Source: Geosiphon pyriformis uo1 (Eukaryota; Fungi; Glomeromycota). Taken from it: a stretch of DNA of 64,000 nt. The stretch spans positions 938,635-1,002,634 of the forward strand of contig JAAOMT010000617.1 in the NCBI GenBank assembly GCA_016748015.1, read 5' to 3'. Position 1 is the first letter of the stretch, and every line of letters begins with the position of its first letter. Position numbers and translations under genes: made by a program. Positions 25,301 to 49,430 of the stretch are shown in pieces. The notes under the pieces were generated by a model, which saw nothing but the letters and a program-made list of their open reading frames with translations, had not been told where the DNA came from and ran no database searches.

Positions 25301-27942
25301 ACTTAGCAATGGCATTAATTAATGGAGCTACCAAAGAAGATGTTCGTCAAATAAAGGAAGCAGAATACATTGAATACACTATGGAATTAGCTGGATTCAA
25401 TTATGAAGATAAAGTAGAAGTCTATCACCAAATTGCAAGTCACACCTACCTGACCCAAGAAGCTCAAATTCAACGATTAGAGCAAATGAACATTAGGCTA
25501 TGTGAAGAATGCATTATGCCTTGCGATGAACAATGGTGTCCCGAATGCTATGCTCTTAGTATTTCCTTGCCCAGCGAAAATGATGAGAATAAAATTGAAT
25601 TTGGAGAACCTGAAGAAACGGAAGAAATTGAAACAACACCCATCTACCTTATTGAAAATCAGTCTGTCTTACAACTTAAATACTTCAACAACAACGGACA
25701 AGGAATAAAACCTGAAAAAGCACACGAAATTGATGCTGGATATGACCTAAGATATCCAGGCAAGGATACTCTTGTTCTCAAACCCAAATCTCTCACAAAA
25801 ATCAACCTCAAAATTGCACTCGAAATCCTGCCAGAAGCAATGGTTCAAATCACCTCTCGGTCCTCTCTGGCAAGCAAAGGAATCAATGTCAGAGAAGAAA
25901 TAATTGATGCTGGATATACTGGAGACATAACAGTGATGCTTCAAAATGAAACTGACAAACCATTCAAGATCAAACATGCTGAAAAAATTGCCCAAGCTAT
26001 TTACCTACTCTTAATCAACATTTCGGGTTTGCAACTAGTCAATCAAAGAGAACAATTAGGAAAAAGCGATAGAGGAATCCAAGGCTTTGGTTCAACTGGA
26101 CGATTCACAGTTCCAGTTAATATAGCTCTTAACACACAGAACAAATCCCACCAGATTCTCAGACTTCCACAACCGATTACCATCTCACCCTTTGGAGAAC
26201 ATCCAGAAATTTACATTTGCATAAAGCCAACAACCACACAACAAATTTTTGAGTCCAATGAACAAGCCTGCTTGTAACATAATATTTTGATCCCAAACAT
26301 TTATATTCCAGAAGGAACAAAGAAAGTCCGAGTTACTTTTTACAACCCCAATAATTACCCCATAATTTTATTAAATAATTTAGAAATTGGAGTTATTCAC
26401 AGTAATATATTTCAACAAGAATTACCCCAAACAGTCCCCGATTTCTCTGAAATTATTGGACATTCACTACTGAAAATCAACCCAAACCCTAGCTCTGAAA
26501 ACTACCATGTTGTTATGGAAAAACTATCTCGAATCAACATAGGACAACTTGAACTACAACAACAGACCCAGCTCAAAGAACTAATTGCAGAATTTGCTAA
26601 TATTTTCACCGAAAACAACAATGACTTAGGAAGAACTGATTTGGTTCAACACCAAATCTATACAGGAGATGCCAAATCCAGGCGACAACAAGCCTACTGA
26701 GTTGCTCCAGAAAGTCACCAATTTATCTGAGAAGAAGTACAACAGATGCTTAACAATGGGTTTATTCAACTATCAATAAGCCCATGGGCCTCACCTGTGG
26801 TTTTAGTTAAAAAGAAAAATGGAAAGATACGATTTTGTGTTGATTACCGACAACTCAACAGTGTCACCATTGGGGATACCTATCCTCTTCCCCAAATTGA
26901 TGACATGTTGGATGCTCTTGAAAAGTCCAAATACTTTTCAACATTAGATTTAGAGAGTGGATACTGGCAAGTTGCTATGGATTCCAAAGACCGCCCCAAA
27001 ACAGCATTCACCACTCAAGAAGGAAATTACGAGTTCAATGTAATGCCTTTCGGATTATGCAATGCACCAGCAACATTCCAAAGACTCATGGATGTTGTTT
27101 ACAAAGGCCTCCTTTGGAAATCAGTAGTAGTTTATCTTGATGACACTAATGTTTATTTACCATTTTTCGAGCTACATTTAATTCACTTGTGAGAAGTTTT
27201 TCAACAATTATGGAAAGCAGGATTGAAATTGAACATTGAAAAATGCTACTTCGGAAAGACAAGTTTAGCTTTTCTTGGTCACATTGTTAGCAAAGATGGA
27301 ATTAAACCAGACCCCGGAAAAATCAGTACTGTCAAAAACTTCAAGACTCCACGAAATACCACAGAATTAAGAGGATTTATTGGATTAGCATTCTATTACC
27401 AAAAATTCATCAAAAGATTCTCAGAAATTGCAAAACCTCTCAACCAGCTCACTACAAAAAATGTCGAATACAAATGGACAAAAGAACACCAAAATGCCTT
27501 CGAGATACTCAAGGAAAAACTCACAACAGCTCCAATCTTTGCCTACCCAGACTTCAGCAACCAATTCTGGTTAGCAACTGATGCTTTTTATACTGCCTTT
27601 GGTGCCATTCTATCACAGTTAGATGACAATGGAAATGAGCGAGTAATTGCTTATGCTAGTAGAACATTAAAGCCAGCCAAAAAGAACTACCTCGCAACAG
27701 AATTAGAAACCGCAGTAGTAATCTGGGCCTTACATCACTTCAATTTTTACCTCAGATCCAAAGAATTTGATATTATCACTGATAATATTAGACTTAAATG
27801 GCTACAAAACAAAAACACCCAGCTGAACGCAAAACAAACCCGATGGACAGGATTTTTAGCTAATTACCAATACATCATACACCACAAACTAGGAAAACTC
27901 CACACCAACGTTGATTGTCTCTCAAGAATGAGACAAGATTAG
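22324..27942 (+). pseudogene. Element B single-frame gag-pol: capsid, CCHC, protease, Cys-rich domain, dUTPase, RT, RNase H
   Basis: ORF-track fragments at 22324, 23176, 24076, 25156, 26287, 26746 and 27223 share one frame. Motifs CHYCGISGHWKRDC, LILDSES, DAGYDL...SRSS...IDAGYTG...RGIQGFGSTG, YLDD, LATDA. Confidence 0.92.
25670..26103 (+). other. dUTPase domain within element B pol
   Basis: Trimeric dUTPase motifs AGYDL, SRSS, IDAGYTG, KIAQ, RGxxGFGSTG. Confidence 0.9.
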
Positions 27943-27991
27943 AAAACAAAACCAACACCCATTTGAATTAACAGCATCAAAACAACAAACA

Positions 27992-29687
27992 ATGAACCCC
28001 AAAAACTACAACAATCTCAAACAATATCTGGAGACATTAACAATCCCAACAGATTGGTCCCCAGACAAAAAACATTGGTTACAACAACAAGCCAAACAAT
28101 ATTTTCTACACAACAACATTATCTATCATCGAAATTTCAAAAACCCAACCAAACCACTCAGATTAATACAAGAACCAGGAAAAAAAGACCATTTTATACA
28201 ACATGCACTCAGATCCTTCATNNNNNNNNNNNNNNNNNNNNGACAAGATTAGAAAACAAAACCAACACCCATTTGAATTAACAGCATCAAAACAACAAAC
28301 AATGAACCCCAAAAACTACAACAATCTCAAACAATATCTGGAGACATTAACAATCCCAACAGATTGGTCCCCAGACAAAAAACATTGGTTACAACAACAA
28401 GCCAAACAATATTTTCTATACAACAACATTATCTATCATCGAAATTTCAAAAACCCAACCAAACCACTCAGATTAATACAAGAACAGGAAAAAAAGACCA
28501 TTTTATACAACATGCACTCAGATCCTTCATCAGCACACTTCGGAAAAGATAGCACCACCCAAAGAACACTAGAATACTACTTTTGGCCTCAAATGAGAAA
28601 AGACATTCACGAATATGTCGAATCTTGTAATAGTTGTCAAAGAAGAAGAGGAACTCACCCTACAGAACCTTTAAATCCAATCAAAGTTGAACAGCCTTTT
28701 GACAGAGTTGGTATCGATTTAGTTGGACCACTATTTATTACCACTTAAGGAAACCATTATATTGCAGTAGCTGTAGACTATCTTACTAAATGGCCTGAAG
28801 CCAGAGCCATTCAATGAGCAGATGCAAAATCAGTAGCAAATTTTATCTACGAAGACATTATTTGTAGACATAGATGTCCAATTGAACTTTTATCTGATCA
28901 GGGAACACACTTTGTAAACAACCTGATACAAGAAAATTGTGAACGATTCAATGTCAAAAGACCTCTGTCTTCGCCCTACCATCCACAAACAAACAGACTT
29001 GTGGAATGTTTTAACAGAACATTGTGTGAGTCATTAGCCAAAGTCTCAACCGATTTTGAGCAAGAATGAGATCTCTTTATTCCATCAGTGTTATTAGCAT
29101 ATAGGACATTAAAACAAGATACCACGAAACACACACCATTTGATTTAACTTATGGAAGGACAGCAACATTACCAATTAGTTTCACAGTGGAAACATACCC
29201 AGCACAACTGATTGATGAAAACAATTTCCAAGAAACGCTTCAGCAAAGAGCCTACACTCTGCTTAGTACATTGGAAGGAAAATGACAAATAGCAGCCACC
29301 CATATTAAACACTCCCAAGCTCAACAAAAAGAATGGCATGATGACAAATTGCCTTCAGTCACCAATAAATTCAAAATTGGAAACAAAGTTCTCTTATACA
29401 AAACTAAAGCTGAAAAACAATGGAGTGAAAAATTTGAAAATAAATAGGATGGACCATTCTTTATCCATGAAGTCCTAGGCAATGGATCATACAAGCTAAG
29501 ACTTGATGACAAAATCCTAGCAAAAGTTGCACATGGAGATCGTTTGAAACACTATCATTCCAGAAACAATCCTGAACCATTAATTCCACAAATTGGTACA
29601 CATTCTCCTTTGGTCAGTCCTGAAGATATTCCCTGAAACTTAGAACCAATAGTTGTCATTGAACAACCTTCCAACCTGAACACTTAA
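27992..29687 (+). pseudogene. Element B integrase (HHCC + DDE, no chromodomain); includes an assembly duplication at 28242-28529
   Basis: MHSDPSSAHFG...CNSCQ, GIDLVGPL, SDQGTHF, YHPQTN, C-terminal LEPIVVI. Confidence 0.88.
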
Positions 29688-29804
29688 TTTAATTTTACTA
29701 GTCATTCTCTTATAATTTAGAAACAATCTCACAAAAACAAAAACAAAAATAACATAAAAACCCATACACCAAAAATAGTTTTTATTTTTTTTCAATTGCT
29801 TATA

Positions 29805-30524
29805 ATGACTATTCCTTAAAACATTCAACAATTATCCCAAAAACTAATGTTAGCTTTAAAAACAATATCCAAATTATCTATTACTATTACTGAAAACCAC
29901 ATTAATTATATCCAAACAGAAGTAGTTACAAATTTAGTCCCAAACTTACGAAAATATCACCCATATAAAAAGAACACAAGAAGTTATACTGGAATTCACC
30001 TGCCAGAACTTTTAAAGCTTGCTTTAAGAGAAAACCTAATGCTCACTCCAATTAGTATTCCACCAAATGCTACAATTCAACAAAAACTTCAACTGTGTCT
30101 CAATGAGGAAAACACTGAATATTCTCCAATCTATAAATATTTTCACATTAGAAAAACACTCTACGAACGGAAACTGGAACTTACAACAGCAAACCTCACA
30201 AAAGAAGCTATTCAGAAACAACTCCACAATGAATTCAAGACAACAGCTGGATCAACAAACAGTTGCTACAGGCTTAGAGCCGCCCTTAGACTTTATGACC
30301 TATTCCACACCTGTGAAAACGTACTACAAAACCCAATTTTTCAACCTTTGAAGATTCAATACATTGGAAAGCTCACAAAACTGAAATTTCAACAATTTTC
30401 AGACCAAATTTCTTCAATAATTTTGGATTATTATCTGGAAATAACAGACAGTACTTGGACTTCGATGGAGCTCAGTCTTAAGGAGGAGGTTATGTTACCA
30501 GACAAAATTAGAGATATTATTTAG
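29805..30524 (+). CDS. Element B accessory ORF3, unknown function (one CAA->TAA at codon 5; open from 29847)
   Basis: 225-aa open frame between IN and the 3' LTR, ending inside the LTR; homologous by eye to ORF3 of A and C. Confidence 0.7.
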
Positions 30525-31431
30525 CATGAAATTATCTTATAATTCCTATCATTAATTAGCATATATTATCATTTCAAATGATCACTTATTACATTAGCAA
30601 AAATGTCCGAAATTATCATTTAATTAATAACCCAAATTGTACACNNNNNNNNNNNNNNNNNNNNNNNNNNNNNNNNNNNNNNNNNNNNNNNNNNNNNNNN
30701 NNNNNNNNNNNNNNNNNNNNNNNNNNNNNNNNNNNNNNNNNNNNNNNNNNNNNNNNNNNNNNNNNNNNNNNNNNNNNNNNNNNNNNNNNNNNNNNNNTTC
30801 AAGTTCATAGAATAGTGTTACAACAAGTTGTATAAAAGAAGAGCTTCTCTCTTCGAGAAAATGTATCTTACTTTAGATTTATCTCTTAAAACTATTCCTA
30901 TACACACAAAAAGAAATAAATATCAAATAATTCGAAAAACCAAATTCTTTAATTATTGTACTTGGAAAATCCCCAAAACCCAACTAACATTTTGAAATTG
31001 ATTAGCTACCAATTTTAGTAAACTGTTAGTGACTCCAGGCCTGGATAGAAAACGTTCCCTTGATAAGATCCTATTTCTTTTACACTTCTTTTATTTTTCT
31101 TTCTTTTTTTATTACAATCATTAGGGTAGCCTACAGACAAGATTCCTATAGAAGAGTTGACTTTCACAGTAAAGTAACTACACATTTTTTTTAGTGAGCT
31201 TCCAGACGAGCAATTCCTGGGAAAGAGTTGATGTTTACTACAACATAACTACATAAAGCAACTGGCACGGAATTGGCCATTCCACTCATAAGCCCAGCAA
31301 GTTCAAATTATAGGAGATAATTTGAAGATAAATTCAGTTACTGGAGGTTCAACCACATCCAGAAAACGTGAATTCACAGCAAATAAGTATCAACAACATT
31401 ACAGAAAAGAGACCAAAAACCTCCAGTAATA
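30493..31431 (+). repeat. Element B 3' LTR (contains an N gap at 30645-30797)
   Basis: Match to the 5' LTR; terminal CA mutated to TA. Confidence 0.92.
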
Positions 31432-31435
31432 TTAT

Positions 31436-32014
31436 GAACTACACTCTTTTCTTGGTTTGGCCTCTTATTATCGCAAGTTTGTCAAGGATTTCTCCAAAAT
31501 TGCTGCTCCTCTTAATCAGCTACTTAGGAAAAACATCAATTATCACTGGGGCACTCATTAACAAAAAGCATTTGAAATTCTGAAGGAAAAACTGGTTACA
31601 GAACCCATCCTCATGCAACCTAATTTGGATCAACCTTTTATCCTCCACACTGATGCATCTGGCTATGGACTTGGTGCTGTTTTTTTCCAAAAAGACGAAG
31701 ATGGCAGGGAACATGCCATAGCATATGCCAGTAGAACTCTCACACCAGCAGAAAGGAATTACTCAGTCACTGAGCAAGAATGCTTAGCAGTAGTTTGGGC
31801 TACCAGCTACTGGGACAAATATCTTAAGGGTGTGAAATTTTTGGTGATAACAGATCACCAAGCTTTGGTTTGGCTACGCAACAAAAGAAACCTGGAACAT
31901 AAACGGATAACTCTCTGAATACTCCACTTGGACGAATTCGACTATGACATTCAACACCACAAAAGAGCTAATCATCAAAACGCCGACGCTCTCTTCAGAC
32001 TTACCATCCAGTGA
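31436..32014 (+). pseudogene. Element A pol, 3' part: RT connection and RNase H
   Basis: FILHTDASGYGLGAV, IAYASRTL, EQECLAVVW, ITDHQAL, NADAL; ends in TGA TAG TAA. Confidence 0.9.
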
Positions 32015-32079
32015 TAGTAAAACCCTCTCAAACCAAACCAACTTAATTATTTATAACTCCCCCACAAACAAACACGATA

Positions 32080-33387
32080 ATGGACTTGGACAACTACTCT
32101 GCTTTAATGAAATTTTTGGGTAAAAAACAATACCCGCCAGACTATACTCGACAGCAAAGAGAATATTTGTGCAAACAATCAAATTTCTATTTGATTTGCC
32201 AGAACCAGTTATATAAAAGAAATAAAAAAGATCCTGACTGCCCCCAAAGAGTCATTAAATTTGAAGAAAGAAAAATTGTGATCTACAATATGCACACTGA
32301 TCCATTAGCTGGACACTTTGGAAAAACAAAAACAATTCAGAAAACTTTAGCTCACTATTATTGACCTACCTTGGGAAAAGACATTGCTAAATACATTAAA
32401 ACCTGTGATATCTGCCAAAGAAGAGAAAAACCCAATCGCAAGGAAGATATCCATCCAATCTTTGTTGGTCAACCATTTAATAGAATTGGTATAGATGTTG
32501 TTGGACCTTTAACAGTAACTCCTAATGGCAACAGATATATTATCACAGCTACCGACTATCTTACAAAGTGGGTAGAAGCAAGAGCCATCCCAGATCAAAC
32601 AGCAGTCTCAATTGCCAATTTCATTTATGAAGATATTATCTGTTGCTATGGCTCCCCCAAAAAACTTTTATCTGATAGAGGAAGAGCTTTTCTCAGTACA
32701 CTGGTTGAAGAACTTTACAGAAAAATGGGAATATGTCATAAACTCTCTTCCCTTTATTACCCCCAAACAAATGGCCTAATGGAACATTTCAATAGAACAC
32801 TATGTGAAACCCTAGCCAAAACCAGTGAAGAAACCAACCTATGGGACAAAGTATTGCCTTCAGCTTTGTTCGCCTACAGAACTGTGAATTATGACATAAC
32901 AAGTTATGAACTCTTTTATCTGCTCTATAGACAAATGGCAACTCTACCAATAAAAACGGATATAGAAATAATACCTTTTGAAGAAATAACAATAGGAGAT
33001 TACAAGAACATTTTGCAAAGAAGACTTGGTACCATTCTTGACTCATTAGTAAAAGCACAAATAATTGTCTTTGAAAAGATAAAACAGTTCCAAGAGAAGC
33101 TTAAAAAGAAAAAGACTTATAAAACACTTTCCTTAAGTGTTGGTGACTTAGTTTTGGAATACCGTTCAGACAGAAACAATGTCTATAGTAATAAATTCTC
33201 TAGCCAGTGGAAAGGATCCTTTATAGTCAACAAAGTTTTGAATAATGGTTCTTATATCTTACAAGATCAATATGGAACAATATTCAGTAATCACCCTGTT
33301 TATAACACGCGACTCAAGAAATATCACAAACGACCTGATTGGTTACCTGTTGTGGTAATACCGACCCAAATGATCAGCAAAAATTAG
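32080..33387 (+). pseudogene. Element A integrase with its own ATG
   Basis: MHTDPLAGHFG...CDICQ, GIDVVGPL, SDRG, YPQTNG, C-terminal WLPVVVI; one TGG->TGA stop at about 32362. Confidence 0.9.
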
Positions 33388-33434
33388 ATATAAATAAATG
33401 CACCATTCCCAAAACAGAGGTATTTTCAATCAAC

Positions 33435-34091
33435 ATGAACAATTATTTTCTGGATCAAAACATTCAAAATGCTTTCTATACTCTCCATGAGTACTGGATC
33501 AAGAACTATCCAAGTGCTACTCTGACTATTGGAAAACAAACCACTATAACAGACAACAGTGAAACTCACACTGTTATTAGACCAAAGAAAACAACTACCA
33601 GAAGAGAAAAAATTGGTGGCAAAATGGATAAATACCTGCTGGAAAGCATAACAGCAGCAATACTTTCACCTTTCAGCACAATTGGAAAAACAATACAAGA
33701 AATCTTGCCCATAGACAAAAACTTGTCATATAGAAGACAACTAGAACTCTATGGTCGTCTTGGTGAAATCATAGAAGACATGAAGCTCATGAAGAAAACA
33801 ACTTCAGAGATACAAGTGGAAATTTTGGACATTATACAATTAGATGTCCCAAGAGTTTTGACCATTGCTAAAAGAGCCAGAACTCTAATACAAAGATTTG
33901 GTCTCTTGGATACAAAGCTTATTTTGCCTCAAGTACTATATACTCTATCCACAAAAGACTTCAACAAATTAGTTAGTTTTGAGTTAGACAAAACCCTTCA
34001 CATAGACTATCCCATAAATAGTTTGATTTTGCCGAAGCTCAATCTCTTTGGAGAGGATGATGTTATGGTTGAAACACATAGTTTTTATTAA
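33435..34091 (+). CDS. Element A accessory ORF3 (218 aa from ATG 33435), unknown function
   Basis: Intact frame between IN and the 3' LTR, reading through the PPT into the LTR. Confidence 0.7.
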   Translation: MNNYFLDQNIQNAFYTLHEYWIKNYPSATLTIGKQTTITDNSETHTVIRPKKTTTRREKIGGKMDKYLLESITAAILSPFSTIGKTIQEILPIDKNLSYRRQLELYGRLGEIIEDMKLMKKTTSEIQVEILDIIQLDVPRVLTIAKRARTLIQRFGLLDTKLILPQVLYTLSTKDFNKLVSFELDKTLHIDYPINSLILPKLNLFGEDDVMVETHSFY

Positions 34092-34738
34092 TTATCACAT
34101 GTATTAGCCACTGATGTCATATAATTAGCCACCCTATTTTTAGATATTGATCATTGACTTGATCAATGACTTGACCGTTGACCTGATCATTGATCTGATC
34201 ATTGACCTGGTCATTGACCACTTTAGATAGCTATATAAGCAATGATTCTCTTAGCTGTAGAAAGACATGATAAAAGTAACGAAATAAACAATATTAATTA
34301 CTTCCTTTCATAATCGCTTATTCCCCTTTCCTTATCTTCAAGTATCTACTTGTTGGCATTCACATACCTTATCTTTTCCCTTTTTTGATTTGTATTTGTT
34401 AGAATTAGCCTGAGAAGCAATTGGCTTGCTCTTGTAATTTATTGAATAAAGAAACAATTGAAAAGTACAACGATATCTGTTATTGATTCTAAGAATTGCC
34501 GAGTTGAGGCATAGAATAATAGCAGTGGTGTTATCTTGTTGACAATCATGGACTATTCCTCTACTTTCAGATTTAAGAAAAGATTAGTGACTGTGATTTT
34601 TATGAAACTAATCACACACATTGAATTCCTACTTATTCAATTCGCTCCCTTATTGTAATTCCTTCTTTGTTTATTTCCATCACCATACAATACTGTTCTC
34701 CCTTGCTATCCATTAGCTTGTTACTCCAACCCGTAACA
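34061..34738 (+). repeat. Element A 3' LTR (678 bp)
   Basis: Match to the 5' LTR with one fewer 12-bp unit; preceded by PPT GGAGAGGATGA. Confidence 0.95.
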
Positions 34739-35830
34739 ATACCACAACACAGCGTGTTCTGTTGCCAGTCTCCAATGAACAATTGATGACACAAGTTTTC
34801 CCACTGGTCCCTTCCAATAGATTCCCAAAATCATGAGCTGTCATTCCCACTGGCAAAGTAAACAAAAGTGCCCTGAATTGATCCCTAAAAGCCCATGTCT
34901 CACAATCTCTCACAGTCTTGACCACATGCACAGAATTTTTCCCAACTAGGAAAGACCATTTTGATGCCAACAGATCAGCCTGGCTAGATTTGGCAAACTC
35001 CACCACAGCCTTCTGCCACAGCCCAATTAACTGAACTTTGATAGACACAATCTGACCATACTCGGATACTGCGGTGATGATTATTTCTTTTGGCATATCC
35101 ATAGGAATTTTCTTGATTACTACAGTCTGATCCGAGCAAATTCCTTGTCTCTTAAGATCGCTGTTTACTATGATGTTATTTTCCTTGGCCAATGATGCGG
35201 CCTTTTCCAAGCTCTCTGATAAAGTAAACATTGATCTGATGATCCTTTCAAATTTTGAGGGGGTAGTGGCCCCCCCAAAACCGTTGATTTTTGAAAACAA
35301 TTTCCTGATCAATTGAGTTTTTACAGTCGCCGATTTGCCTTCCATAGCTGAGAGATTAATATCTAATGCAAAGGACTTCCTAACAGCGACTTCCACTTGA
35401 GATTTAACAATTTTGGGATCCAACCACATTTTTTTTAAAGGAATACCAAGAGGAGGGGGGAGAGAACCGCCATCATCATCATTTACGTTGTAATCTAATG
35501 AACCAAGAGGGGAGCTGCAATCCAAATTATTCTTAACTCTCTTTGCCTTAGGAGTTGTTGCAGCTGAGCCAAAAAGAGATCCATCATCACCACCAGCCAA
35601 GATGCTACCAGCAACACTGTTACCAGAATCACTTTTCATATTCGAGTATTGACTCCCACCAGAATGAGGTTTGGCCAAAACAGCTTTGTTTTTATCACCA
35701 AACTGATTCATATGATGAAGGGAAACTCTTTTTTTTTGAGAGAAGGGACCACCAACAGAACCAGAAGAAGCACCAACAGGAGCTTTCTTATTCGACATAC
35801 TACTGCCAGAAGCAGCTTCCAAGTCCACAA
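34739..35830 (-). pseudogene. LINE-1 ORF1, N-terminal part (disordered N-terminus, RRM-like repeats)
   Basis: VIKKIPMDMPKEIIITAVSEYGQIVSIKVQLIGLWQKAVVEF and LFTLPVGMTAHD; homologous to 55018-56859. Confidence 0.85.
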
Positions 35831-35899
35831 TAAAAGGATTATTTGTAAGAAAAATGTTGAGATACAGCAAGTGAAAAACAAAAAAAACTACTTTCAAAA

Positions 35900-38243
35900 T
35901 TTTTTTTTATTATATTTTAATGAACGAGACCCAAATACTACCTAAACTATAATACCACAGAAGAGATTACATTATAGGTGTAAATCATGCATTTTCTACA
36001 TGTGATCAGACACTCGATCCAATCAAGGACTCACTATGCTAAATCAAAAGTAAGTGGAAATAATTCCAACCCATGAATTCTCTCAATGATACCATTCAGA
36101 TTCCTAGAGTCAAAAATAAACTCACTAAGAAACAATCTAGTAGACTCAATATTGCCTCTGGTTTCAGCACCAGACATATGCCACAAAGCAATAACACGCT
36201 CAATAGTGTCCTCACTTAAAAAAGAAGGCTTAGCAGCTAGCATATCATCATAATCCATATCACCAAAGTCAACCTCAGATCTAAGACAAGCAATGTCCTT
36301 GGAGACCCCAACCAAGAGATTAGAAAAATTGTTAGCAGCACTTTTCATAGAAATGAGATCCTTCTCGACCTGAACAGTCTTAGCAGCATTATCATCAAGA
36401 AGACGAGACACCAAAGCAACCAAAGAACCAACAGGCTTAACAATAGACTTAACCAGAGCAGCCAAATCCGAAATCTGCTTTTCCAAAGAGTCCAATCTAG
36501 AACCAACAGCAGGATCAACAACAGAAGCAGCCAAAGAAGCCACCAAAAGAGGAAACTCAGAAAGACCAGAAGAAGCAGCAGTCTTGGCATATAAAGCAGA
36601 ATTCACAAAATGAGACTTGAAAACCTTGGGAGTGGGGGGTGGGGAAATCTTGCAATCTATGGCCAGATGGCCCATTTCTTGACACCTAAAGCAGCGCCGG
36701 CAGCCAGGAGTTTCCCACCAGATACGGCATTTCCTTAGAGTACCAGTCTTGACTACAGCAGAATCCAAATCACCTTGAGAGCCAAATGTAACCAAAGCAA
36801 ACTGGAAATAACGACCAGAATCAGGAAAACGAGGGATGAAACATGTACGACCACCAATCTGAGAAATCATATCACTGATTTCAAAGGCAGTACAACCAGG
36901 GGGAAGGTTGACCAATTTGGCCTTAAACTTATCACAAGACAAAATAGTCTCATTTTGATTTATTAGAGGGAGAATTCTAACACTATCCTTGTCCACCAAG
37001 ACTGACCAATGCTTCAAGACAGACATAACAGAGTCCAATTTTTCAAAATAAACCACCACATACTGCCAAATGCCAGCAGGCTTCAGCACAACATGAGCGA
37101 CACTACCAAACACACTAAGAGTCAACTTAATGTCAGCAGCAGACACACCCAAAGGTACATCATGCAGCACAACAGCAGCAGAAGAAGAACCAAATTCAGA
37201 AACCACCAAAGACTTGGCAATTTTGAGAGTGGCCAAACGAACAGAGCTTGTAAGCTCAACCAGAAACGCAGCTTCCAAAGACTGTTGAGAAGCAAACTCT
37301 ACACAGAAAAGCTTTACATTGTCTTTTGAAACAGATTTGGCACCCAAAAAACCATGCACAGACTGAAAAACAGTCTTAACATAAGCCAATTTGGTCTTGA
37401 AAATAGCACCAGGCACCAGAGTGGAGGCCACCTACCCAGCAAATCTTTGATGACTAGTAATAGTTTTCCAAGCACCACCAAAAGTAACACCAGAAACTAG
37501 AGAAGGAGATAAATCAGTTTCCATTTAATCAGCCCAGTTCTCAAGAACAGGTGACCCAACAGGAGGAGATTGTTTTGCTTCTAAAACCAGCAATAATCTA
37601 CTGGAAAACACCACATTTAGCAACACAACCAGTGGTTGATCTTGGCCCATCTTAGATGATGTGCCAAATGATGCTACTGAGATCTCATCTAGGATCTCAT
37701 TGGGAACCACAAAGGGGTTCGGTGTAACAATAGCAGAGGCAAGCAACTGCCCCCACTTTTCTGAACTTTTGGTCTTTTTGACCATTTTTTTTGAAGAGGT
37801 GGTGCCAGAAGCACCAGATATTGAGTCTATAGAGGGGAAGACCAGCTTATTTACTGGTCTATTATTAAAAACTTTTGGGCTCTTAGTCAGGGTGGAGGCA
37901 ATACTGGAACTAATCCAAGTGTGTCTCTTTGAAAGAACTTTGACTGGTGAAAAACCAGCCAAAGATGGGGAAGTTGATTCAGTAGCTACCAAAGGCAGCT
38001 TTTCACGATTACTGGGTAAGAGGAAGGCTTCTAAAATGTTTTGCCTAGTTGCTTCTACAACAGAAAGAGCTTCTCTGGTTGAAATTTTATTAGATATCTT
38101 AGGACAGATATCAGATGCAGCCTTTTTACTCTTAGCTCTAGTTGTGGTCATAAAATTAAGGAGACAAAGAGTAATAGTTTTTTTTTCCTTTCAAAATATG
38201 ACTCTTTTTCAAGAATTTGGGATGAAGGAGAGAAAGAGTTTTT
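35900..38243 (-). mobile_element. ORF1-only non-autonomous non-LTR element (about 2.3 kb) with LINE-type 3' UTR and A-rich tail
   Basis: Single ORF1-like frame, no ORF2. 3' UTR (35920-36033) is homologous to the LINE 3' UTR; A-rich tail at 35900-35918; TSD copy AAACAGTATTTT at 38244-38255. Confidence 0.85.
36034..38151 (-). pseudogene. ORF1-like protein of about 705 aa (RRM-like repeats, CCHC knuckle, coiled coil) with two point stops
   Basis: LHDVPLGVSAADIK...GIWQYVVVYF, KLVNLPPGCTAFEI, CFRCQEMGHLAIDC, RLDSLEKQISDL. Stops at 37525 (CAA in copy 2) and 37432 (from TGG). Confidence 0.85.
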
Positions 38244-38979
38244 AAACAGTATTTTGGTATTTATGATAAAATTTTTAAATTAAAATTTGTTAATATTTGA
38301 CAATATATTATTGTTTATTTTAAGTGTTTTAATATAATTACAGCTATTTTAATATGTTAATTGGTTTTAATAAGCAAAAATAGTTAAAAGTTTTTTTTAT
38401 AAATTAAAAAAAATTACTTTTTTTTATAATATGTTTAAAACTAAATTAATCAATTTTTTTTGGTTGTTTAATCTTTAAAATTAATAAATTAATTTTTTAA
38501 GTTGGTAGTTGTGTTTATTTTATTTTTAATTTTTCTGATTTTATAAATAATTTTAATATATAATTGTTATTTTTGGTTTTAAAAATAATCTAAATACTAT
38601 TGTTATTAGAATTAATATTTTAAAAAAGTATTATATCTAATAAAAAATATTTAGTTAATAATATTTTTAATATTAAAATTTTAATCATTTGGCTTTAAAT
38701 TATAAAATTTTTTTTTCTTAGATTTTTGTTTTAATTTATTGCTTCAAAATTTTTAATTTGTATTTTGTTAAAATTAAATTTTATGATATAGTTTTTGTTT
38801 GTGTTTTATTAAATTCTTTTATTAATAGTTTTTAGTTACTATTATTAAAAATTTAATAAATTAAATCAAACTGAACTTTAAATATTGTTTAAATTTAATT
38901 TAAATTATAAACTAAACTTGAACCAAACCAAATTTTGATAAATTTATTATAGTTATATTATTAAACTTATCTTAAACAG

Positions 38980-39842
38980 TATTACAGGTGATTATTTGGG
39001 GTCTCAAAGCAAATAACAAACTTGTAACTTGGTGTTAATAGCTAATATAATTGTTATGATTTGAAGGTTTTGGTTGTTTGAAAGTTTTGGTTGTCTGAAG
39101 ATTTAAGTTGAGTTCTTTGTATAATGAACAAAGATTCAATAGTTGTTTTCAGTAGTTTCTTGGAATCACAATTCTGTCAATTTTTTTCTCAGCTTGGTGG
39201 CCGGCAATTTTTTAATAAGCAATTCATATTTCTTACATGTTTTACTCACTTGTAGAGGTCTTTTACCAGACAATCTTTAATGTCAATAACTTAGTACTTT
39301 AATTTTTAATTAATTAATTAAACAACAAAAAATAACAAAAATAAAAGAAAATAAAATAAAAGAAAGAAAGAAATAAGTCAAGACAATGAATGTTAATATT
39401 CTGTTAATAGTCATTATTAAAAGCTATTGTTCCAATGTAGTTAAGTATCAGTTATTATCAATATAAAGTGTTGATAGTAGAAAGTGAATTAAGATAACAA
39501 ATAATTATTTATTGATATTTGTGAACTAGAAGATTGCTTAAATAAAATCTAAACTGAAAGGTCTGTCTTTTTTACTTCTAATGCTACTATTATATATACA
39601 TAATTGAGATTTCTTAATTCCTTAATTCTTTATATCAGAAATCCTAAAATTCCTGGAATCCTGTAATTTTTTTGAGAGAAATTTTAGAATTCTGGAATCT
39701 TGCAATTTCTTATACAAGAATCTTAAAATTTCTGGAATTTTGTAATTCCTTTGAGAGAAATCCTGGAATTCCACATTTACTACATCCACTTTTGATTGGC
39801 TAATTTATATACTAATATATTTTTTATATTCTATAAATAACA
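38980..39842 (-). repeat. Element C 3' LTR
   Basis: Matches 49462-50317. Confidence 0.92.
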
Positions 39843-39856
39843 TTATTTCTTTTTTT

Positions 39857-40476
39857 TAATATTGAGCTCTGTCAAGATCTCTGAACTCTCCTAATTCTCT
39901 TTTCTTGATTATTTTTTGAACTTCTTTTTCAAGAATTACTTGTGTTATTTTGGTCTGTAATTTTTTAAATTGGGTATTTATTTAATTAGTAGTAACTGTA
40001 TTCATTACTGTATTGAATAGTACTTTTGGTTGGTCTTGAAATCTGGCATATAATCAATAGATGGCTTTTGCTTGTATTGTTAAATTGTTCTTTCCCACAA
40101 ATTGTTCAAGTTATTATAATATTCTTGAATTGAATAATCACTTTGTCTTATCTATATATAAGTTCTGGATATTCAAATATTGTCCCAAGTGAAAATAACA
40201 AAAGTTTTTTGGAAATTGTTGTATCTACCAATTCTATGTTTCTATCATTATCTCTTGATATGGTACACCTTCTGTTTGTATTTTTATTGCTGTTTTTACT
40301 TTTGTTATTATTTTGTCAATGGTGTTTTCTGGTTTTCTTTGTTCTCTGTTTTGAGATCTCTTCTTTGTATTTTTATATCAAATAATTTGTTGGTTAATGG
40401 TAATTTCTATATTTTGTTGTTGAATCAGTTAGAAGAGTTGTTGTGTCAGTATGTGTATATCATTAGTAATTTCCAT
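39857..40476 (-). pseudogene. Element C accessory ORF3 remnant
   Basis: MEITNDIHILTQQLF*LIQQQNIEITINQQII ... LLFSLGTIF ... QAKAIY*LYARF ... TQFKKL, homologous to ORF3 of B and A. Confidence 0.65.
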
Positions 40477-40529
40477 TTTTCTGGTATCTTTTGTCACATA
40501 TACTGTGTTTTTATATACTCCTTTGGTTT

Positions 40530-41901
40530 GTTCAATTTAACATGTTTGGTTTAATAATTATGATTGGTTTCAGATCTCATAGAATTTTATCTAATTGGAT
40601 TAGTATTCATTGTATTTTCAGTTGTGGAATATTATTGGTGGATAATAATACTATATGGTAATATGGTTTCAGTCGATCACTATGTGCTGTTTTGGTTAAG
40701 ATTTTATTGTCTCATCTTAATTTATAAACTCTATTTCCAAGAATTTTTTCTATGTGAAATGGTTTGTCCTATTTGGGATCAAATTTTTTACTCCATTGTT
40801 TTTCTACTTTGGTATGATATAAAAATACTTTGTCTCCAATCTTAAATTCGACTGGTTTGTCTGGTAGTTGGTTATTATGTCTTTTTTTTTGTTTTTTTTG
40901 TAACTTTTGGATGTTATCAGCTGCTTTTTGTCATTTGTTTTCTAGTGTTTCTATTAAATCATATGTTTTTTTCAACAATATTTCTTGGAAATTTTTTTTT
41001 GTTATTGGTTTTGTTGAATATGCGTTAACTTTTATTTTAACTGGTAGTATTGCTGTTCTACAATATACTAATTTAAATAGTGTTGCTTGTGTAGTGTCTT
41101 GTTTTATTGTCCAATAAGCAAATAATACTAATAGTATAAACAAATCTTATTTGTCTTGATTTTTTTGGCTGATTTTGGCAATTGTTTTACACAATGTTCT
41201 ATTGAATCTTTTAACTAAGTCATTGGTTTGTGGATAATATGGTAATAATAATGGTCTTTTGATTTCAAATCTTTGACTTAATTTTGCTAATGTTCTATTC
41301 ACAAAGTAAGTTTTTTGGTTGGATAGTAATTCTTTTAACAAATCAAACCTTGATGAATGAATTTGGCAATAAATTCTGCATCTGTTCTTTGAATTGCTTT
41401 TGCTTCTGGCCATTTTGTGAGATAGTTCATAGCTACTGTAATGTATCTGTTATCTCTGCTGATGATTATTAGTGATCCAACTAAATCAATTCTAATTCAA
41501 TCAAATGGTTGCCTTACTTTGATTGGTCTCAATAGTTCATTGGGTCTTGTTTTTTCTCTTCTCTGACAAGCATCACAATTTTGAACATATTAGATAATGT
41601 TTGGATATATAGATGGCCAGTAATATCTTTTTTTGGTTCTTTCTATTGTTGCTTCTTTATAAAAATGTCCTGCTGTTGGGTCTGAATGTATATTGAATAA
41701 TATTGTCTCTTTCTCTGATTCTGTAATTACTCTGGTTAGTTGATTTGGATTCTTTCTGTTTTTTTGATAAAGTATATTTTGGTGAGTAATAAAATATTTA
41801 TATTGTTGTTTGATATAGCTTTGTTTTTTTGGAGATAATTTCTTCTTAAACTGCTGGGTATTAATATAGTGTTGAAATTGTTGATATTTTTGTATATTTA
41901 T
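40530..41901 (-). pseudogene. Element C integrase remnant
   Basis: HSDPTAGHF...CDACQ, YYPQTNDLVKRFNRTL, C-terminal DLKPIIII. Confidence 0.8.
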
Positions 41902-41931
41902 TTTTTTTTATATTTTTGGGTTAAAATGTTC

Positions 41932-44900
41932 TTAGATTTGTCTTATTCACAACAAACCATTGGCATTTTCGTTTTCTTTTCTCTTTTTGTAATATACTGT
42001 ATAATTAAATAGTGAAAGTTTTATTTTCTATCTAGCATGGCAATTATTTCTAAATTTTTGCTTTTGGATTGAAGTCAATTCTTTATAATCAGTATATACA
42101 TCAAACTTTTAACTCAAGTATTCTTTCTATTTTATAATTGTCCAGTAAATGGCTAAGTGTTTTAATGCTGAAGTTCCATAGTTCTTTTCAGTTGGACTTA
42201 AGTTTCTGCTAGCATAAGCTATTGGATGTTCTTATCTATCCAGTTTTTTTTGAGATAGTACAGCTCTTAATACTTAACCAGATACATCAGTGGTAATAAT
42301 AAATGGTTTGTTGTAATTTGGATAAATTAATACTGGAATTTGAATAAGTTTTCTTCTCAGTGTGTCAAAAGCTTTTTGTTAAGTTTCAGTCTATTCATAT
42401 TTGGTGTTTTTTATTTGGAGTTGGTGTAATGGTTGAGCTATTTTGAAAAAGTCTTTGATGAAATAGCAGTAATATTCAGCAAATCTCAAGAATGTTCTTA
42501 ATTCTGTGAGATTATTTGGTACTGAAAAGTTCTTAATAATCTCAATCTTATCTGGATCTGTTTTAATATTGTTTTTGCTTACAACATATCCCAAAAATTT
42601 TAATTCCGTTTTGCCAAAGAAGCATTTGGTGGTATTCAACTTTAATCTGGCTCTTCTTAGTCTTCCAAATACTTGTTAGAGATAGTGTAAATGATCATTA
42701 AATGTTTTGGAAAACACATTGGTATTATCTAAGTAAACAACTACTGATTTCTACAGTAGTCCAGTATAGACAATTTCCATGAGCTATTGAAATATGGCTG
42801 GTGCATTCATTAAGTCAAAAGACATAATTTCAAATTTGAAATTTCTTTTTCATGTTGTAAAAGCTGTTTTCTCCTTATCTTTTGGTTTCATGGCTACTTG
42901 CTAGTAATTACTGTCTAAGTCTAAAGTTGAGAACCATTTCTTTCCTTTAAAAGTGTCAAAAAGTTTTTGGATTTTTGGAGTCAGGTAGCTATCTCTTTTT
43001 GTTACTTCATTCAGTTTCCAATAATCCACATAAAAGCAGATTTTCCTATTTTTCTTACAGATTAGTACTATAGATGACAATCATGAACTCATTAATGGTT
43101 GGATTAACCCATTGTCTAATATCCAGTTAATTTCTTGTCAGATGATTTCATGGCTTGCTAGTAGTATTTAGTATGTTCTTTGTTTAATTGGCATTGTATC
43201 TCCAGTTTTGATCTGATGTTGAATAATATCAGTTCTGCCAAATTTGTTCTTGCTGGCAAAAATGTCATTAAAGTTGTTTAGTAACATCATAAACTGCATA
43301 TGTTGTAATGGATCTAAATTTTCTAAGTTTATCTGTTTCAATTGTTCTGGTTAGAGCAAATAACATTCTTCTTATTTATATATTATTTGTGATGTGATAT
43401 CTACATATTCACACAGTTGTGGAAAGTCAGGAATGAGGTTTGGTGATTGTTTTTCAACTTCAGTGCTTAAATATTCTATAGTAGTTCTTTTTGGTATCTC
43501 AAAAACATCTTTTGTTGTATTGTAGATAAGAATTTTAATATGTTTCAGGCTTTTGACTGGTATGTAAAGATTGGTAAGTCCAATCTTTTCTGATTTACAC
43601 ATAGTAGTTTCTGCTTTAAAAATCTGAGCTTGATTCTTTACTCTTCTTTCTATAGCTAACATGTACTGGTTATATGATGAAATGGAAATTAATTGACAGG
43701 TGAAAATAATTTCTTCCTTGTCAATAAATTTTTTTTTTGTCATATTAACTGATACATCTATTCTATTTATAGATTCAAATCCATTAATCTCTCTTGCTGT
43801 TATTCCTAATTCTTCTCTTTTTTTTACTGACACTAATTGAGCTATTTTAACCAGAGGCAAAAATATTGTCTGTGCTATCTTTTTATTTGGCTCTATGATA
43901 TAGGTTTTTTCTGAGTCATTTTGTAGCATTGCAATAATATTTTCTATATATTCTGTATCAATTATTTCTCTTCTGATATTGATTTTTTTTTTTGCTAAAC
44001 TACTCCTAGATGCTAATTGAACCATTGTTGTTGCTGAGATTTCTAGTGCTATTTTGAAATCAATATAGGTGTACAAATGTGGTTTTAATTTTATGACTTC
44101 TTTTCTTGAATATCTTAGATCAAATCCTGCATCAGTATCATGTGTGCATTTGGGCATAATACCTTCATTATTATTGTTGAACCATTTAAGTTTCTGTTTC
44201 TTAGAAAGATCAGAAAGTGCAATATATTGTTTTGGGTTTGAATCAGAGTCTGAACTATTGTTATCTTTATTGCCATTTTGGACAGAGCTGGAATCATTAT
44301 TTTCATTGTCATTATTGTCAGAGTTTGAATTGGAATTGAACTGTGATTCCAATTCTATTTTGCAGCTGCTGATTGGTTCTTCTTTCTCTGAAATCATGTA
44401 GATCATGCGTGGTGGTGGATTGTAAATGAGATCACATTTATTACAATATTGGAAGTCACATAAAATTAAACAGTAATCATATAGTCAAGTATTGATTTCT
44501 TTCAAGCATTGTTTTTGCTTTTTTTTTGTAAATGCTAATTCTTGGTAGTGTTTGTGGAATTGTTTTGGGTCTATAGAATCTAAGACAATATCTGAATTTG
44601 GGTCCCAATTGAGTTCTATGGGTTCTGATGGGTTGTTTTTAATCACCCTTATTTCTTTTGGTGACACTTCTTTGATCTTGGTGAGTGCCATGTACCATAT
44701 TTTGTTATTATCATGTGGACAATTGTCTAGCTATTTGACTGTTCTCCTTCAGACAGCTTCTATAGGAGTCTTTTTTCTCACTCAATTACTGATTAGAATC
44801 ATGTATTGGCATAATTCATTACAAGTTCCTTCTCATCCAGGAATGTTATTCCATATTTCTTCATCCAACAAAGTCTTTTCACATGCAAAGCATGGTTCAT

Positions 44901-47900: not shown

Positions 47901-49430
47901 GAGATTCTTTTGTTAACATAAAAATTGAATGCTGATTCTGCTAATACAGGGGGGTATAAAAAGTATTGGATACTTTTATAATATGTTATATAAAAGAACT
48001 AACTTATGAATTGTTAATTTTTTATTATTATATTAAAATACATATTAGTATTTTGTTTGACTCTTATTTGCTTTAAGAATAGCTTGAACTTGACATGACA
48101 TAGACTTGATCAAATTATGATAGTAATTTACAGGTATTGCATCTTATTCTTCTTTAATCTACTATTCCAATTGTATAATATTTGAGAGTTGTAAATTACA
48201 TTGACAAATTTTAACTTCAATATATGACCAAAGATTTTCTATTGGAGTAATATCAAGACTTTGTGTTGGCCAAAGAATTAATTCAACATTTAAAGAGGTA
48301 AGAAAAGAATGCATGACTTTTGATGTGTGAATTGGTACATTGTCTTCCTGAAAAAAAAACTTTTTTTTAGTTTTTTTTGCATGAAGTTTTACTGTAGAAA
48401 TTGCATAATTAGCCAAGATTTTATGGTATATAACTCCAGTAATATGACCAACCAAAGGAACTAAAGGACCCAAACCAACTCATAAAAAACATTCCCAAAA
48501 CATGTGACCAAAGGTTTTTCTAACTGTGGCTATAATACAATCCTTATGAAACTCTTTGGAAGATTTATGTCATACACGTTCAAATCTTATAGTCCTAAAT
48601 TATGTATATATAGATTCATTTGACCAAAACTCATTTAAAATCTTTTACTGTCCAATTTTCATAAGTACAAACCTATTGTAAATGTTTTTCTTTATTTAAT
48701 TTGGAAATTAATGGCTTGAGATAAGAAATGCACAAGCAAAGTCTTTTTTGAGCTAATCCATTTCAAATAGTTTATATAGAAATAAATTTGTTGATATCTT
48801 TAATAAAATTCAATCATATTTGAGAAAGAGTTTGGCAGCAGGTTTCTTTATTCTCCATTATTAAATATTTGAGTTGTTTACATACATGTTTGTCAAGAAT
48901 TTGTGGTTGGCCTGTTCATTTTTTAGGAAGTTTTTTTAGCTCATATGACTTCTATACACATATTACAGAAAAATGTGAACATTTAATAGTCATAGAAATC
49001 TTACTGTTTGTATGTCCTAACTTTATTGCTGAAATAATCTCTCCTTTTTGGTATTCAGAAAGTTTTTTTCCAAGACATATTTGATGTAATAAATTTTTTC
49101 ATGACAAAAATGTTTGATATTTTATATATACACATATAATCTATTGTTGTGTTTTAAAAAGATACAATTTATGTTAATTTGTAAATTATAACTATAAGTA
49201 ATTATAAAAAAAATTATGGCTTAAATTGGTAATAGTATTATTATATATAGTCTTTTTTATATATTATATTAAGTGTCCAATACTTTTTATACCTCTCTGT
49301 AGATAATTTTTAATTAATCCCAAATGTTAACAGTAGTATTGGAATAAAGATTTGGCAAATTCTAGATGGTTTGTTCCTATTTTTTTTGGTTCTGCTACTT
49401 TTTGATGGTTGTTAGTTGGTACTAGTTTTC
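41932..49430 (-). pseudogene. Element C gag-pol remnant (gag split by Tc1; PR, Cys-rich domain, dUTPase, RT, RNase H)
   Basis: LIFDSES at about 45710; DAGFDL...SRSS...KIAQ at 44130-43770; KCFFGKTELKFLGY; FIITTD. Confidence 0.85.
47947..49299 (-). mobile_element. Tc1/mariner (DD34E) DNA transposon, degenerate, 1353 bp
   Basis: About 29-bp TIRs CAGRGRGGTATAAAAAGTATTGGAYACTT; TA duplication at 47945 and 49300; transposase FQEDN...WPTQSLDITPIENLW with 34 residues between D and E. Confidence 0.93.

What the first reader, a model, noticed from the sequence alone, without database searches (positions are those of the whole stretch)
29805..40476. Three different Ty3/gypsy families carry a homologous, unannotated accessory ORF3 between integrase and the 3' LTR
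A (33435-34091), B (29805-30524) and C (40476-39857, minus) have unrelated LTRs, yet each has a ~210-240 codon sense ORF running up to or through the PPT. N-termini align by eye: B MTIP(Q)NIQQLSQKL...LSITITENHINY, C MEITNDIHILTQQL...IEITINQQII(R)Y, A ...DQNIQNAF...TLTIGKQ. C-terminal halves share a pattern: A LYGRLG...AKRARTLIQRF...LSTKDFNKL; B KYFHIR...AALRLYDLF...LTKLKFQQF; C LFSLG...AKAIY(R)LYARF...TQFKKL. No signal peptide or transmembrane segment is visible, so it is not env. Inference: a lineage-wide soluble helical accessory protein, possibly a DNA-binding transactivator, targeting factor or anti-silencing protein (compare VANC or Tas).
Basis: partly seen in the sequence, partly recalled or inferred. 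Interest (0 to 1): 0.8.

Follow-up and report, generated by a model that had tools for sequence, protein, structure and literature searches.

The report
Third gene of fungal gypsy retrotransposons
Three jumping-gene families in this fungal DNA each carry an extra gene after their integrase; two of these genes are clearly related and the third probably is, and they are predicted to make a small soluble helical protein of no named family that likely regulates the jumping gene itself.

Summary
The three ORFs are real. Each lies between integrase and the 3' LTR of a complete Ty3/gypsy element. A is intact (218 aa); B has 1 stop and C has 9 stops from later decay. Every named relative is a Geosiphon pyriformis hypothetical protein, so they are gene-called but unnamed.

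B and C are homologous (HHalign E 2e-4). They belong to a family of at least 8 subfamilies, two from metagenomes; one metagenome contig shows the same layout. A fails HHalign and HMM tests but aligns end to end in global profile tests (z 2.8-6.6; unrelated controls at most 2.5), so it is probably a distant member.

AlphaFold2 (pLDDT 79) gives a small alpha-beta-beta module, a basic loop and a helical domain. There is no membrane segment and no significant Pfam, PDB or viral-structure match, only faint ParB/KorB-type DNA-binding look-alikes. Integrase is also a separate ORF, so the layout is gag-pol | IN | ORF3.

Best guess (0.35): a nucleic-acid-binding regulator acting on family-specific U3 repeats. 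The function is untested.

The parts
33435..34091 (+). ORF3 of element A, intact, 218 aa; last ~10 codons inside the 3' LTR
   Evidence: 130 relatives at E<=0.001 among 332 candidates, the 120 listed all named G. pyriformis
29805..30524 (+). ORF3 of element B, 239 codons, one in-frame TAA at codon 5; reads through PPT into LTR
   Evidence: 208 relatives among 546 candidates, the 120 listed all named G. pyriformis
39856..40476 (-). ORF3 of element C, 206 codons, 9 internal stops, no frameshift; ends just before the PPT
   Evidence: 30 relatives among 72 candidates, all named G. pyriformis
16899..34738 (+). Element A (Ty3/gypsy, no dUTPase found), interrupted by element B; 4-bp TSD ATAC/ATAC
16899..17588 (+). 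A 5' LTR, followed by PBS-like TGGTGCTC; 12-nt tandem array at 16986-17069 upstream of a TATA-like box
34061..34738 (+). A 3' LTR (642 of 680 aligned bases identical to the 5' LTR); 12-nt array at 34148-34219
32080..33387 (+). Stand-alone integrase ORF of A: own ATG about 65 nt after the stops that end RNase H; one internal stop
21297..31431 (+). Element B (gag-PR-dUTPase-RT-RNase H in one frame, then IN, then ORF3), nested in the RT/RNase H region of A; TSD TCAT/TTAT
21297..22278 (+). B 5' LTR; 20-nt array at 21539-21606 upstream of a TATA-like box
30493..31431 (+). B 3' LTR (97% to 5' LTR; N gap 30645-30797 hides the array)
28302..29687 (+). Stand-alone integrase ORF of B (its start is duplicated at 27992 across a 20-N assembly gap); decayed
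38980..50317 (-). Element C (dUTPase-bearing, most decayed); TSD CTGT/CTGT
38980..39842 (-). C 3' LTR (765 of 854 aligned bases identical to the 5' LTR at 49462-50317); 40-nt array at 39637-39772
40630..41900 (-). Decayed, frameshifted integrase of C (approximate ends)

Best explanation
These Ty3/gypsy elements carry a third gene after a separately encoded integrase, and its product is predicted to be a soluble two-module helical protein that likely binds the element's own nucleic acid, most likely the repeat arrays in the LTR promoter, and so would switch on or protect from silencing copies of its own family.

Shown: the ORFs, the gag-pol | IN | ORF3 layout, B-C homology, spread over at least 8 subfamilies, absence of a membrane segment, and family-specific repeat arrays upstream of the LTR TATA-like box.

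Probable: A is a distant member.

Predicted: the fold, i.e. an N-terminal alpha-beta-beta module, a basic flexible loop and a helical domain with a conserved helix-G-x-x-N-helix turn.

Inferred and untested: a separate subgenomic mRNA, nuclear location, DNA binding through that turn and the following helix, the U3 arrays as target, and activation or anti-silencing as the outcome.
For: Real gene:
- Open or near-open sense frames.
- Colinear subfamilies at 16-77% identity over the helical domain, with shared residues Y102/Y104/I107/G108/L111, G142-N145, R155/L156/Y157/F160, N178/G181/F188 in P0317 numbering.
- The helical domain is more conserved than the N-terminal part between B and its sister subfamily (81% against 55-64%).
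- ORF3 divergence follows integrase divergence: IN B-C 48%, B-A 41%; ORF3 B-C 24%, B-A 17%, C-A 15%.
- Same layout with an intact ORF3 in metagenome locus L001.

Fold:
- AF2 with a 47-row alignment gives pLDDT 79, and 85-95 over residues 81-200.
- Three ParB-family DNA-binding domains are among the 50 rows of the wide structure search: Spo0J 1vz0 (Z 4.2, rmsd 5.2, 92 aligned, model 78-207), KorB 1r71 (Z 3.5, rmsd 5.1, 96 aligned) and ParB 6s6h (Z 3.2, rmsd 3.1, 59 aligned).
- The top weak Pfam hit for family B is DUF1016_N over the same helices (7 of 52 members, best E 0.015).

Target:
- Each family has its own tandem array just upstream of the LTR TATA-like box, the arrangement reported for VANC targets (PMC5735166, abstract).
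- The elements are under heavy C-to-T decay, so there is silencing-type pressure to counter (inference).
Against: - No structural match is significant: best Z 4.6, 0 chains at Z>=5 of 48,161. The ParB rows are tied with unrelated helical proteins.
- The YhcG N-domain profile test was not significant (HHalign P 0.09; z 1.5-1.8, equal to a control at 1.8).
- The intact metagenome proteins are acidic (pI 5.4 and 5.9). The basic pI of Geosiphon copies may partly come from G-to-A decay (the cause is my inference).
- Tandem arrays in U3 are common in LTRs and may bind host factors (general knowledge).
- The supposed recognition domain is the most conserved part while the arrays differ, which fits a fixed partner better than a changing DNA target.
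- For A: HHalign E 0.40, 0.24 and 0.11; HMM scores no better than reversed sequences (median 2.7 against 2.95 bits; -1.25 against -0.5); global test A-C z 0.7; 0 of 116 hits of the B+C profile were family A.
Confidence: 0.35

Rival explanations
1. ORF3 is a partner of the stand-alone integrase. It would fold it, bring it into the particle or tether it to target chromatin, replacing what fusion to Pol or a chromodomain does in other gypsy elements.
For: Integrase has its own ORF and ATG in A, B and L001, so it needs another way into the particle (inference). No chromodomain was found in the C-terminal 340 residues of A's integrase. The helical domain is the most conserved part. ORF3 and IN diverge in the same order. 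Intact proteins are acidic.
Against: Co-divergence is expected from linkage alone. No interaction was tested. I have not shown that the stand-alone integrase and ORF3 always occur together.
Confidence: 0.25
2. ORF3 is an RNA-handling factor like CERV or Rev. It would export unspliced genomic RNA or control the subgenomic messages that IN and ORF3 need.
For: A three-cistron layout needs spliced or subgenomic RNAs, or unusual translation (inference). CERV of the C. elegans element Cer1 is such a factor, made from a spliced mRNA (PMC10309623, abstract). ORF3 has a basic flexible loop, residues 41-51.
Against: No RNA-binding family or fold was matched. The spacers are short and G-poor (0-10% G), which also fits reinitiation without splicing.
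Confidence: 0.2
3. ORF3 is a captured member of a wider unnamed Mucoromycota helical-domain family, carried for a job outside the replication cycle, such as acting on a host defence protein.
For: The nearest ESM Atlas clusters by features are unnamed, all-eukaryote, mostly Mucoromycota clusters (0.93, 98 members, 173 of 256 features; 0.94, 63 members).
Against: Scores of 0.9 or more arise 4-10 times in 100 for shuffled proteins, a closterovirus coat protein scored the same 0.93, and there is no alignment. Those clusters may themselves be retrotransposon ORF3s. Of 28 identified hits of the deep search, none was a host gene of another named fungus.
Confidence: 0.12
4. A's ORF3 was acquired independently and resembles B/C only as a generic helical protein. 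This rival concerns the three-way homology, not the function.
For: Standard profile tests fail. A is missing from the deep search. A lacks dUTPase, and B's capsid finds C but not A.
Against: With PPT-derived tails removed, global profile scores are z 3.8 (B), 6.6 (A7), 2.8 (metagenome pair only) and 4.5 (broad), each 0 of 60 block shuffles. The single sequence P0001 scores z 5.4, against at most 2.5 in 22 unrelated window proteins. Both halves match separately (z 3.9 and 3.7, 0 of 200) and crossed halves do not (z -1.1 and -1.6). Same position, size and PPT read-through frame as B.
Confidence: 0.25
5. The ORFs are neutral open frames or env remnants.
For: Differences among Geosiphon copies are mostly decay: 74-85% are reachable by one transition. 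dN/dS was not computed.
Against: Colinear conservation across 8 subfamilies at 16-48% identity outside the B pair, a confident fold, no membrane segment and 0-3 cysteines.
Confidence: 0.03

Closest known systems
Sense additional ORFs between pol and 3' LTR (aORF-3S) of LTR retrotransposons (PMC7264820, first third of the text read)
   Same: Sense ORF between pol and the 3' LTR, kept in many copies, function unknown.
   Different: Those described are env-like, some with membrane segments. This one has none, is in a fungus, and follows a separate integrase ORF.
Family-specific ORF3s of dUTPase-bearing bdelloid rotifer LTR elements (PMC5408684, passages read)
   Same: Third ORF in dUTPase-bearing elements; some are 210-230 aa.
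   Different: Rotifer ORF3s are env, GDSL esterase, DEDDy exonuclease, coiled-coil or membrane proteins. None of these families was hit here.
VANC anti-silencing proteins of Arabidopsis VANDAL transposons (PMC5735166, abstract read)
   Same: Element-encoded accessory protein; related families have different tandem-repeat arrays in non-coding DNA.
   Different: VANC belongs to DNA transposons. No shared Pfam domain was seen. Binding and demethylation are not shown here.
CERV of C. elegans Cer1 (PMC10309623, abstract read)
   Same: Non-env accessory protein of an LTR retrotransposon that acts on its own element.
   Different: CERV is shown to be nuclear, made from spliced mRNA and needed for RNA export. 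None of this is tested here, and sequence similarity was not tested.
ParB/Spo0J/KorB helical DNA-binding domain and the YhcG (DUF1016) N-terminal domain
   Same: Similar run of helices with a Gly turn; weak structure rows over the whole helical domain; same register in HHalign.
   Different: Scores do not exceed controls. No ParB N-terminal domain and no PD-(D/E)xK nuclease domain.
Foamy virus Tas (recalled, no call)
   Same: Transactivator gene between the enzymes and the 3' LTR, overlapping the LTR edge.
   Different: Retroviral, with env present; no similarity tested.

Membership tests
Ty3/gypsy LTR retrotransposon (the carriers) | LTRs with TG...CA ends, PBS, PPT and target-site duplication | tested here: met
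   three LTR copies end in TA instead of CA, consistent with decay
Ty3/gypsy LTR retrotransposon (the carriers) | Domain order gag, PR, RT, RNase H, IN | tested here: met
   Pfam and tblastn
Ty3/gypsy LTR retrotransposon (the carriers) | Integrase as part of the Pol polyprotein | tested here: not met
   Stop right after RNase H and a new ATG 24-65 nt later in A, B and L001; C too decayed to judge
Chromovirus | Chromodomain at the integrase C-terminus | tested here: inconclusive
   No chromodomain hit in A's C-terminal 340 residues. B's and C's C-termini were not scanned, and no tree with reference clades was built
env / env-like ORF3 | Transmembrane anchor | tested here: not met
   Highest 19-residue hydropathy 0.41-1.29 in 8 of 8 proteins
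env / env-like ORF3 | Cys-rich ectodomain or match to a fusion-protein family | tested here: not met
   0-3 Cys; no env or fusion family in Pfam scans
env / env-like ORF3 | Signal peptide | not tested
   No predictor available; the N-terminus is modelled as a helix plus hairpin
DUF1016_N (YhcG N-terminal domain) | Profile match above cut-off or above controls | tested here: inconclusive
   Pfam E 0.015-0.12, P0127 12.9 bits against cut-off 32.8; HHalign against 46 YhcG sequences P 0.09; z 1.5-1.8 against control 1.8
DUF1016 / YhcG | C-terminal PD-(D/E)xK nuclease domain | tested here: not met
   The protein ends after the helical domain; no match to the YhcG C-domain profile
ParB/KorB DNA-binding domain | Structural match standing above unrelated rows | tested here: inconclusive
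   Z 4.2 (rmsd 5.2, 92 aligned), 3.5 (5.1, 96), 3.2 (3.1, 59), tied with unrelated helical chains
ParB/KorB DNA-binding domain | Sequence-specific DNA binding | not testable with these tools
   Needs EMSA or DAP-seq
VANC anti-silencing proteins | Family-specific tandem repeats in non-coding parts of the element | tested here: met
   Distinct arrays in U3 of A, B, C and L002; motifs were read off the same LTRs, so their enrichment there is partly circular
VANC anti-silencing proteins | VANC domains (DUF1985/DUF287, names recalled) | tested here: not met
   Not among the Pfam hits listed (one search showed the first 25 of 49 families)
VANC anti-silencing proteins | Binding to the repeats and loss of methylation | not testable with these tools
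   Experimental
CERV/Rev-like export factor | Spliced mRNA, nuclear location, need for RNA export | not testable with these tools
   No RNA data were available to the session

The most novel reading that the evidence does not exclude
A lineage of three-cistron fungal Ty3/gypsy elements (gag-pol | IN | ORF3) encodes its own transcription factor or anti-silencer: a ParB/KorB-like helical DNA-binding protein of an undescribed family that co-evolves with family-specific repeat arrays in the LTR promoter, and that helped these elements expand in a genome where LTR elements cover about 41% of the DNA.
Probability: 0.2. Interest if true: 0.8.

Novelty: new variant of a known kind. Interest (0 to 1): 0.5.

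Why it matters
LTR elements cover 41.2% of the G. pyriformis genome (PMC11952901, passage), and hundreds of its 'hypothetical proteins' are copies of this ORF3. Naming the family would clean up annotation and mark out a fungal gypsy lineage with an unusual three-gene layout.

Non-env accessory genes of LTR retrotransposons mostly have no known job. Here there are intact natural copies (P0317, P0320), a confident model and candidate target repeats, so the function is directly testable. If it is a sequence-specific activator or anti-silencer, it would be a fungal retrotransposon counterpart of VANC or Tas. Eight literature searches did not show a description of this family. The library lacks most subscription journals, and Repbase-type and supplementary TE libraries were not seen.

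Tried and rejected
- Pairwise BLASTP among the three ORFs: nothing.
- First AF2 model, family B alone: pLDDT 47. Its fold searches gave nothing and were set aside.
- Foldseek of the good model against PDB and BFVD: 0 hits at E<=0.001. The N-terminal module was barely tested by the structure search and was not folded alone.
- Profile searches against PDB sequences: only weak hits, E 0.096 or worse.
- PHROGs: only unnamed weak hits; phrog_23683 in 14 of 47 members, best E 4e-4, mainly B types, not followed.
- tblastn of P0317 against phages and P0320 against plasmids: no match.
- Three scans of viral contigs: no relative.
- DUF1016_N/YhcG lead: tested with 46 non-redundant sequences from 72 of 80 fetched loci; not significant.
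- P0383, the last of the 116 deep-search hits, is a cyanobacterial WD40 protein and was dropped as false.
- The shared C-terminal 'EL.LEEE.MLP' is spelled by the PPT and LTR edge, so it was removed before the homology tests.
- RNA runs: no RNA holder listed; this is no evidence on expression.
- Homodimer prediction: no answer, score 0.17, alignment not used; no evidence either way.
- No whole genome was held, so copy numbers and dN/dS could not be computed.
- TATA-like words upstream of ORF3 were seen but are expected by chance in such AT-rich spacers; not used.
- Look-ups of earlier findings by sequence (P0002, P0317), by place and by two word sets returned nothing.
- From recall, an abundant unnamed helical domain in arbuscular mycorrhizal fungal hypothetical proteins resembles the C-terminal half; I could not fetch it to test.
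Full report
Setting. The window holds three complete LTR elements. A spans 16899-34738, B is nested in it at 21297-31431, and C lies on the minus strand at 50317-38980. Each has paired LTRs (94%, 97%, 90% identical), a PBS-like TGGTGCTC, a PPT and a 4-bp target duplication. Domain order is Ty3/gypsy; B and C carry dUTPase, A does not. The three LTRs share no blastn similarity. All listed relatives of the three ORF3s are Geosiphon pyriformis hypothetical proteins, the best at 91-93% for A and B, so the window is likely from that fungus or a close relative. No whole genome was held.

Observation. A 33435-34091 is open for 218 codons. B 29805-30524 has one stop at codon 5. C 40476-39856 has nine stops and no frameshift; sister copies carry mostly Q, W or R at eight of those positions. 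LTR pairs differ almost only by transitions (36 of 38, 21 of 21, 87 of 89), so the stops are post-insertion decay. Chance of an open frame is about 1e-8 to 1e-7 for A and B. C's ORF3 has more stops per codon than its integrase (4.4 against 1.1-1.6 per 100), partly because it is rich in stop-prone codons (9 of 34 against 6 of 42). A and B read through the PPT into the LTR; C ends just before it in a shifted frame.

Homology of B and C. BLASTP between the three window proteins finds nothing. With family alignments, B and C match end to end: HHalign E 2.3e-4 over 173 columns, phmmer up to 27 bits, global profile z 7-9. A B+C profile run over 1.84 billion representatives gave 116 hits. Of these, 115 fall into subfamilies C (64), B (18), B' (10), E (10), F (7), D (4) and two metagenome proteins, and one is a false WD40 hit. 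I identified 28 of the 116: 25 G. pyriformis (8), 2 unnamed metagenome clusters and the false hit. The other 88 were not looked up. A metagenome scan found 2 loci among 256 pattern matches. L001 shows RT-RNase H, integrase, intact ORF3, PPT and LTR in the same order, and L002 holds the LTR. Subfamilies are 16-48% identical over the helical domain, 77% for the B pair.

Homology of A. A fails HHalign (E 0.40, 0.24, 0.11), scores no better than reversed sequences against HMMs and was not recovered. A global profile alignment of my own (BLOSUM62, fixed gap costs, block shuffles) gives z 4.1-6.8 against B, the broad set and A7, but 0.2 against C. After removing the PPT-encoded tail it gives z 2.8-6.6, and 5.4 for the single window protein against at most 2.5 in 22 unrelated window proteins. 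Both halves match their counterparts separately and crossed halves do not. ORF3 identities (24, 17, 15%) rank like integrase identities (48, 41%). I put A's membership at about 0.75.

Protein. AF2 on family B alone was poor (pLDDT 47). On intact P0317 with 47 rows it gave pLDDT 79 and pTM 0.64. The model shows helix 7-20, strands 24-29 and 34-38, a low-confidence basic loop 41-51, and helices from 54 to 221, with confidence 85-95 over 81-200. Conserved positions cluster at Y102-L111, G142-N145, A152-F160 and N178-F188. There is no membrane segment and there are few cysteines, so it is not env. No Pfam family reaches its cut-off within the ORF3 region. Foldseek finds nothing at E<=0.001 in PDB or BFVD, and the wide search tops out at Z 4.6. 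Three ParB-family DNA-binding domains are among its 50 rows, two covering the whole helical domain, but they are tied with unrelated chains. The DUF1016_N hint aligns in a sensible register but is no better than a control. The ESM Atlas's nearest clusters are unnamed and mostly Mucoromycota, at scores that chance reaches 4-10 times in 100. Intact metagenome proteins are acidic.

Layout. Prompted by earlier notes of this scan, I checked the RNase H-integrase junction. In A, B and L001 the pol frame stops right after RNase H (three stops in a row in A), and integrase starts at its own ATG 24-65 nt later across a G-poor spacer. ORF3 follows after 47-316 nt. Unlike in some of those notes, start and stop codons do not overlap here. 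The elements are thus gag-pol | IN | ORF3, which needs subgenomic messages or reinitiation (inference). Each family has its own tandem array upstream of the LTR TATA-like box: 12-nt units in A, 20-nt in B, 40-nt in C, and other motifs in L002.

Mechanism. ORF3 is a selected, vertically inherited accessory gene of this lineage (high confidence for B/C types; dN/dS not computed). I commit, at 0.35, to a nucleic-acid-binding regulator acting in trans on the family's own U3 arrays. Rivals are a partner of the stand-alone integrase (0.25), an RNA export or processing factor (0.2), a captured host-type domain with another job (0.12) and a neutral frame (0.03). Nothing here shows binding, location or expression.

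Comparison. It works most like the non-env accessory genes of LTR elements: plant aORF-3S (PMC7264820, first of three parts read), rotifer ORF3s (PMC5408684, passages), CERV (PMC10309623, abstract). By analogy it resembles VANC (PMC5735166, abstract). It is a member of none of these by the features I could test. An 'add. ORF' of unknown function is drawn for some fungal elements in PMC2864245 (passages; figure not seen, supplements not read). PMC3248453, PMC8778642 and PMC11952901 (passages) showed no description of this ORF; their supplements and the TE library of PMC11952901 were not seen and may bear on novelty. Several earlier AI notes describe a similar ORF3 in other genomes. They are leads, not support, and sequence look-ups did not link them to this family.

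Verdict. A real, conserved, unnamed accessory protein family in a three-cistron fungal gypsy lineage; two-way homology shown, three-way probable, function open. New variant of a known kind; interest 0.5.

Noticed in passing
window 31990-32080, 27930-27995; L001 760-800: Integrase is a separate ORF with its own ATG after a stop at the end of RNase H, across a nearly G-free spacer.
   Followed up: partly
LTR pairs of A, B, C: Almost pure transition decay (144 of 148 substitutions), with CpG o/e 0-0.36 in the elements. In C the C-to-T changes fall in CpA, CpT and CpC contexts alike, a broad hypermutation or methylation-driven process.
   Followed up: partly
window 34040-34060, 30470-30492, 39865-39843; L001 3090-3118: A short motif (GCTCA-A/G-T) sits just upstream of the PPT in all four elements despite unrelated LTRs; possibly a cis signal for plus-strand priming.
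   Followed up: no
window 34739-35906 and 16898-11836 (minus): Element A appears inserted into the ORF1 of a non-LTR element whose reading continues on the far side, followed by RT- and RNase H-like frames recognised by eye. Further copies of such elements, one with RRM and zinc-knuckle hits, lie at 36034-38190, 54853-60017 and 62143-64000.
   Followed up: partly
window 24900-25500: Cys-rich insert between protease and dUTPase in B's pol, with a similar Cys/His-rich stretch in C near 44480-44900; no Pfam hit.
   Followed up: no
window 48162-48479 (minus): Fragment that looks like a Tc1/mariner-type DDE transposase (motif recalled, not tested) inside element C's 5' region.
   Followed up: no
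window 27932-28530 and 30645-30797: A 290-nt duplication around a 20-N gap and a 153-N gap in B's 3' LTR: likely assembly artefacts.
   Followed up: yes
LTR of C (39600-39640) and L002 99-183: A short AT-rich repeat stretch of C's LTR matches L002's LTR in opposite orientation (E 3e-4), perhaps a double-stranded DNA binding site.
   Followed up: no
proteins P0295, P0300, P0323, P0342, P0275: Public gene models that fuse ORF3 pieces to non-LTR element sequence; probably annotation chimeras.
   Followed up: no
window 1164-2249 and 4559-5642 (minus): Probable host genes: a low-complexity protein and a methyltransferase-like gene (recognised by eye) among long simple repeats.
   Followed up: no
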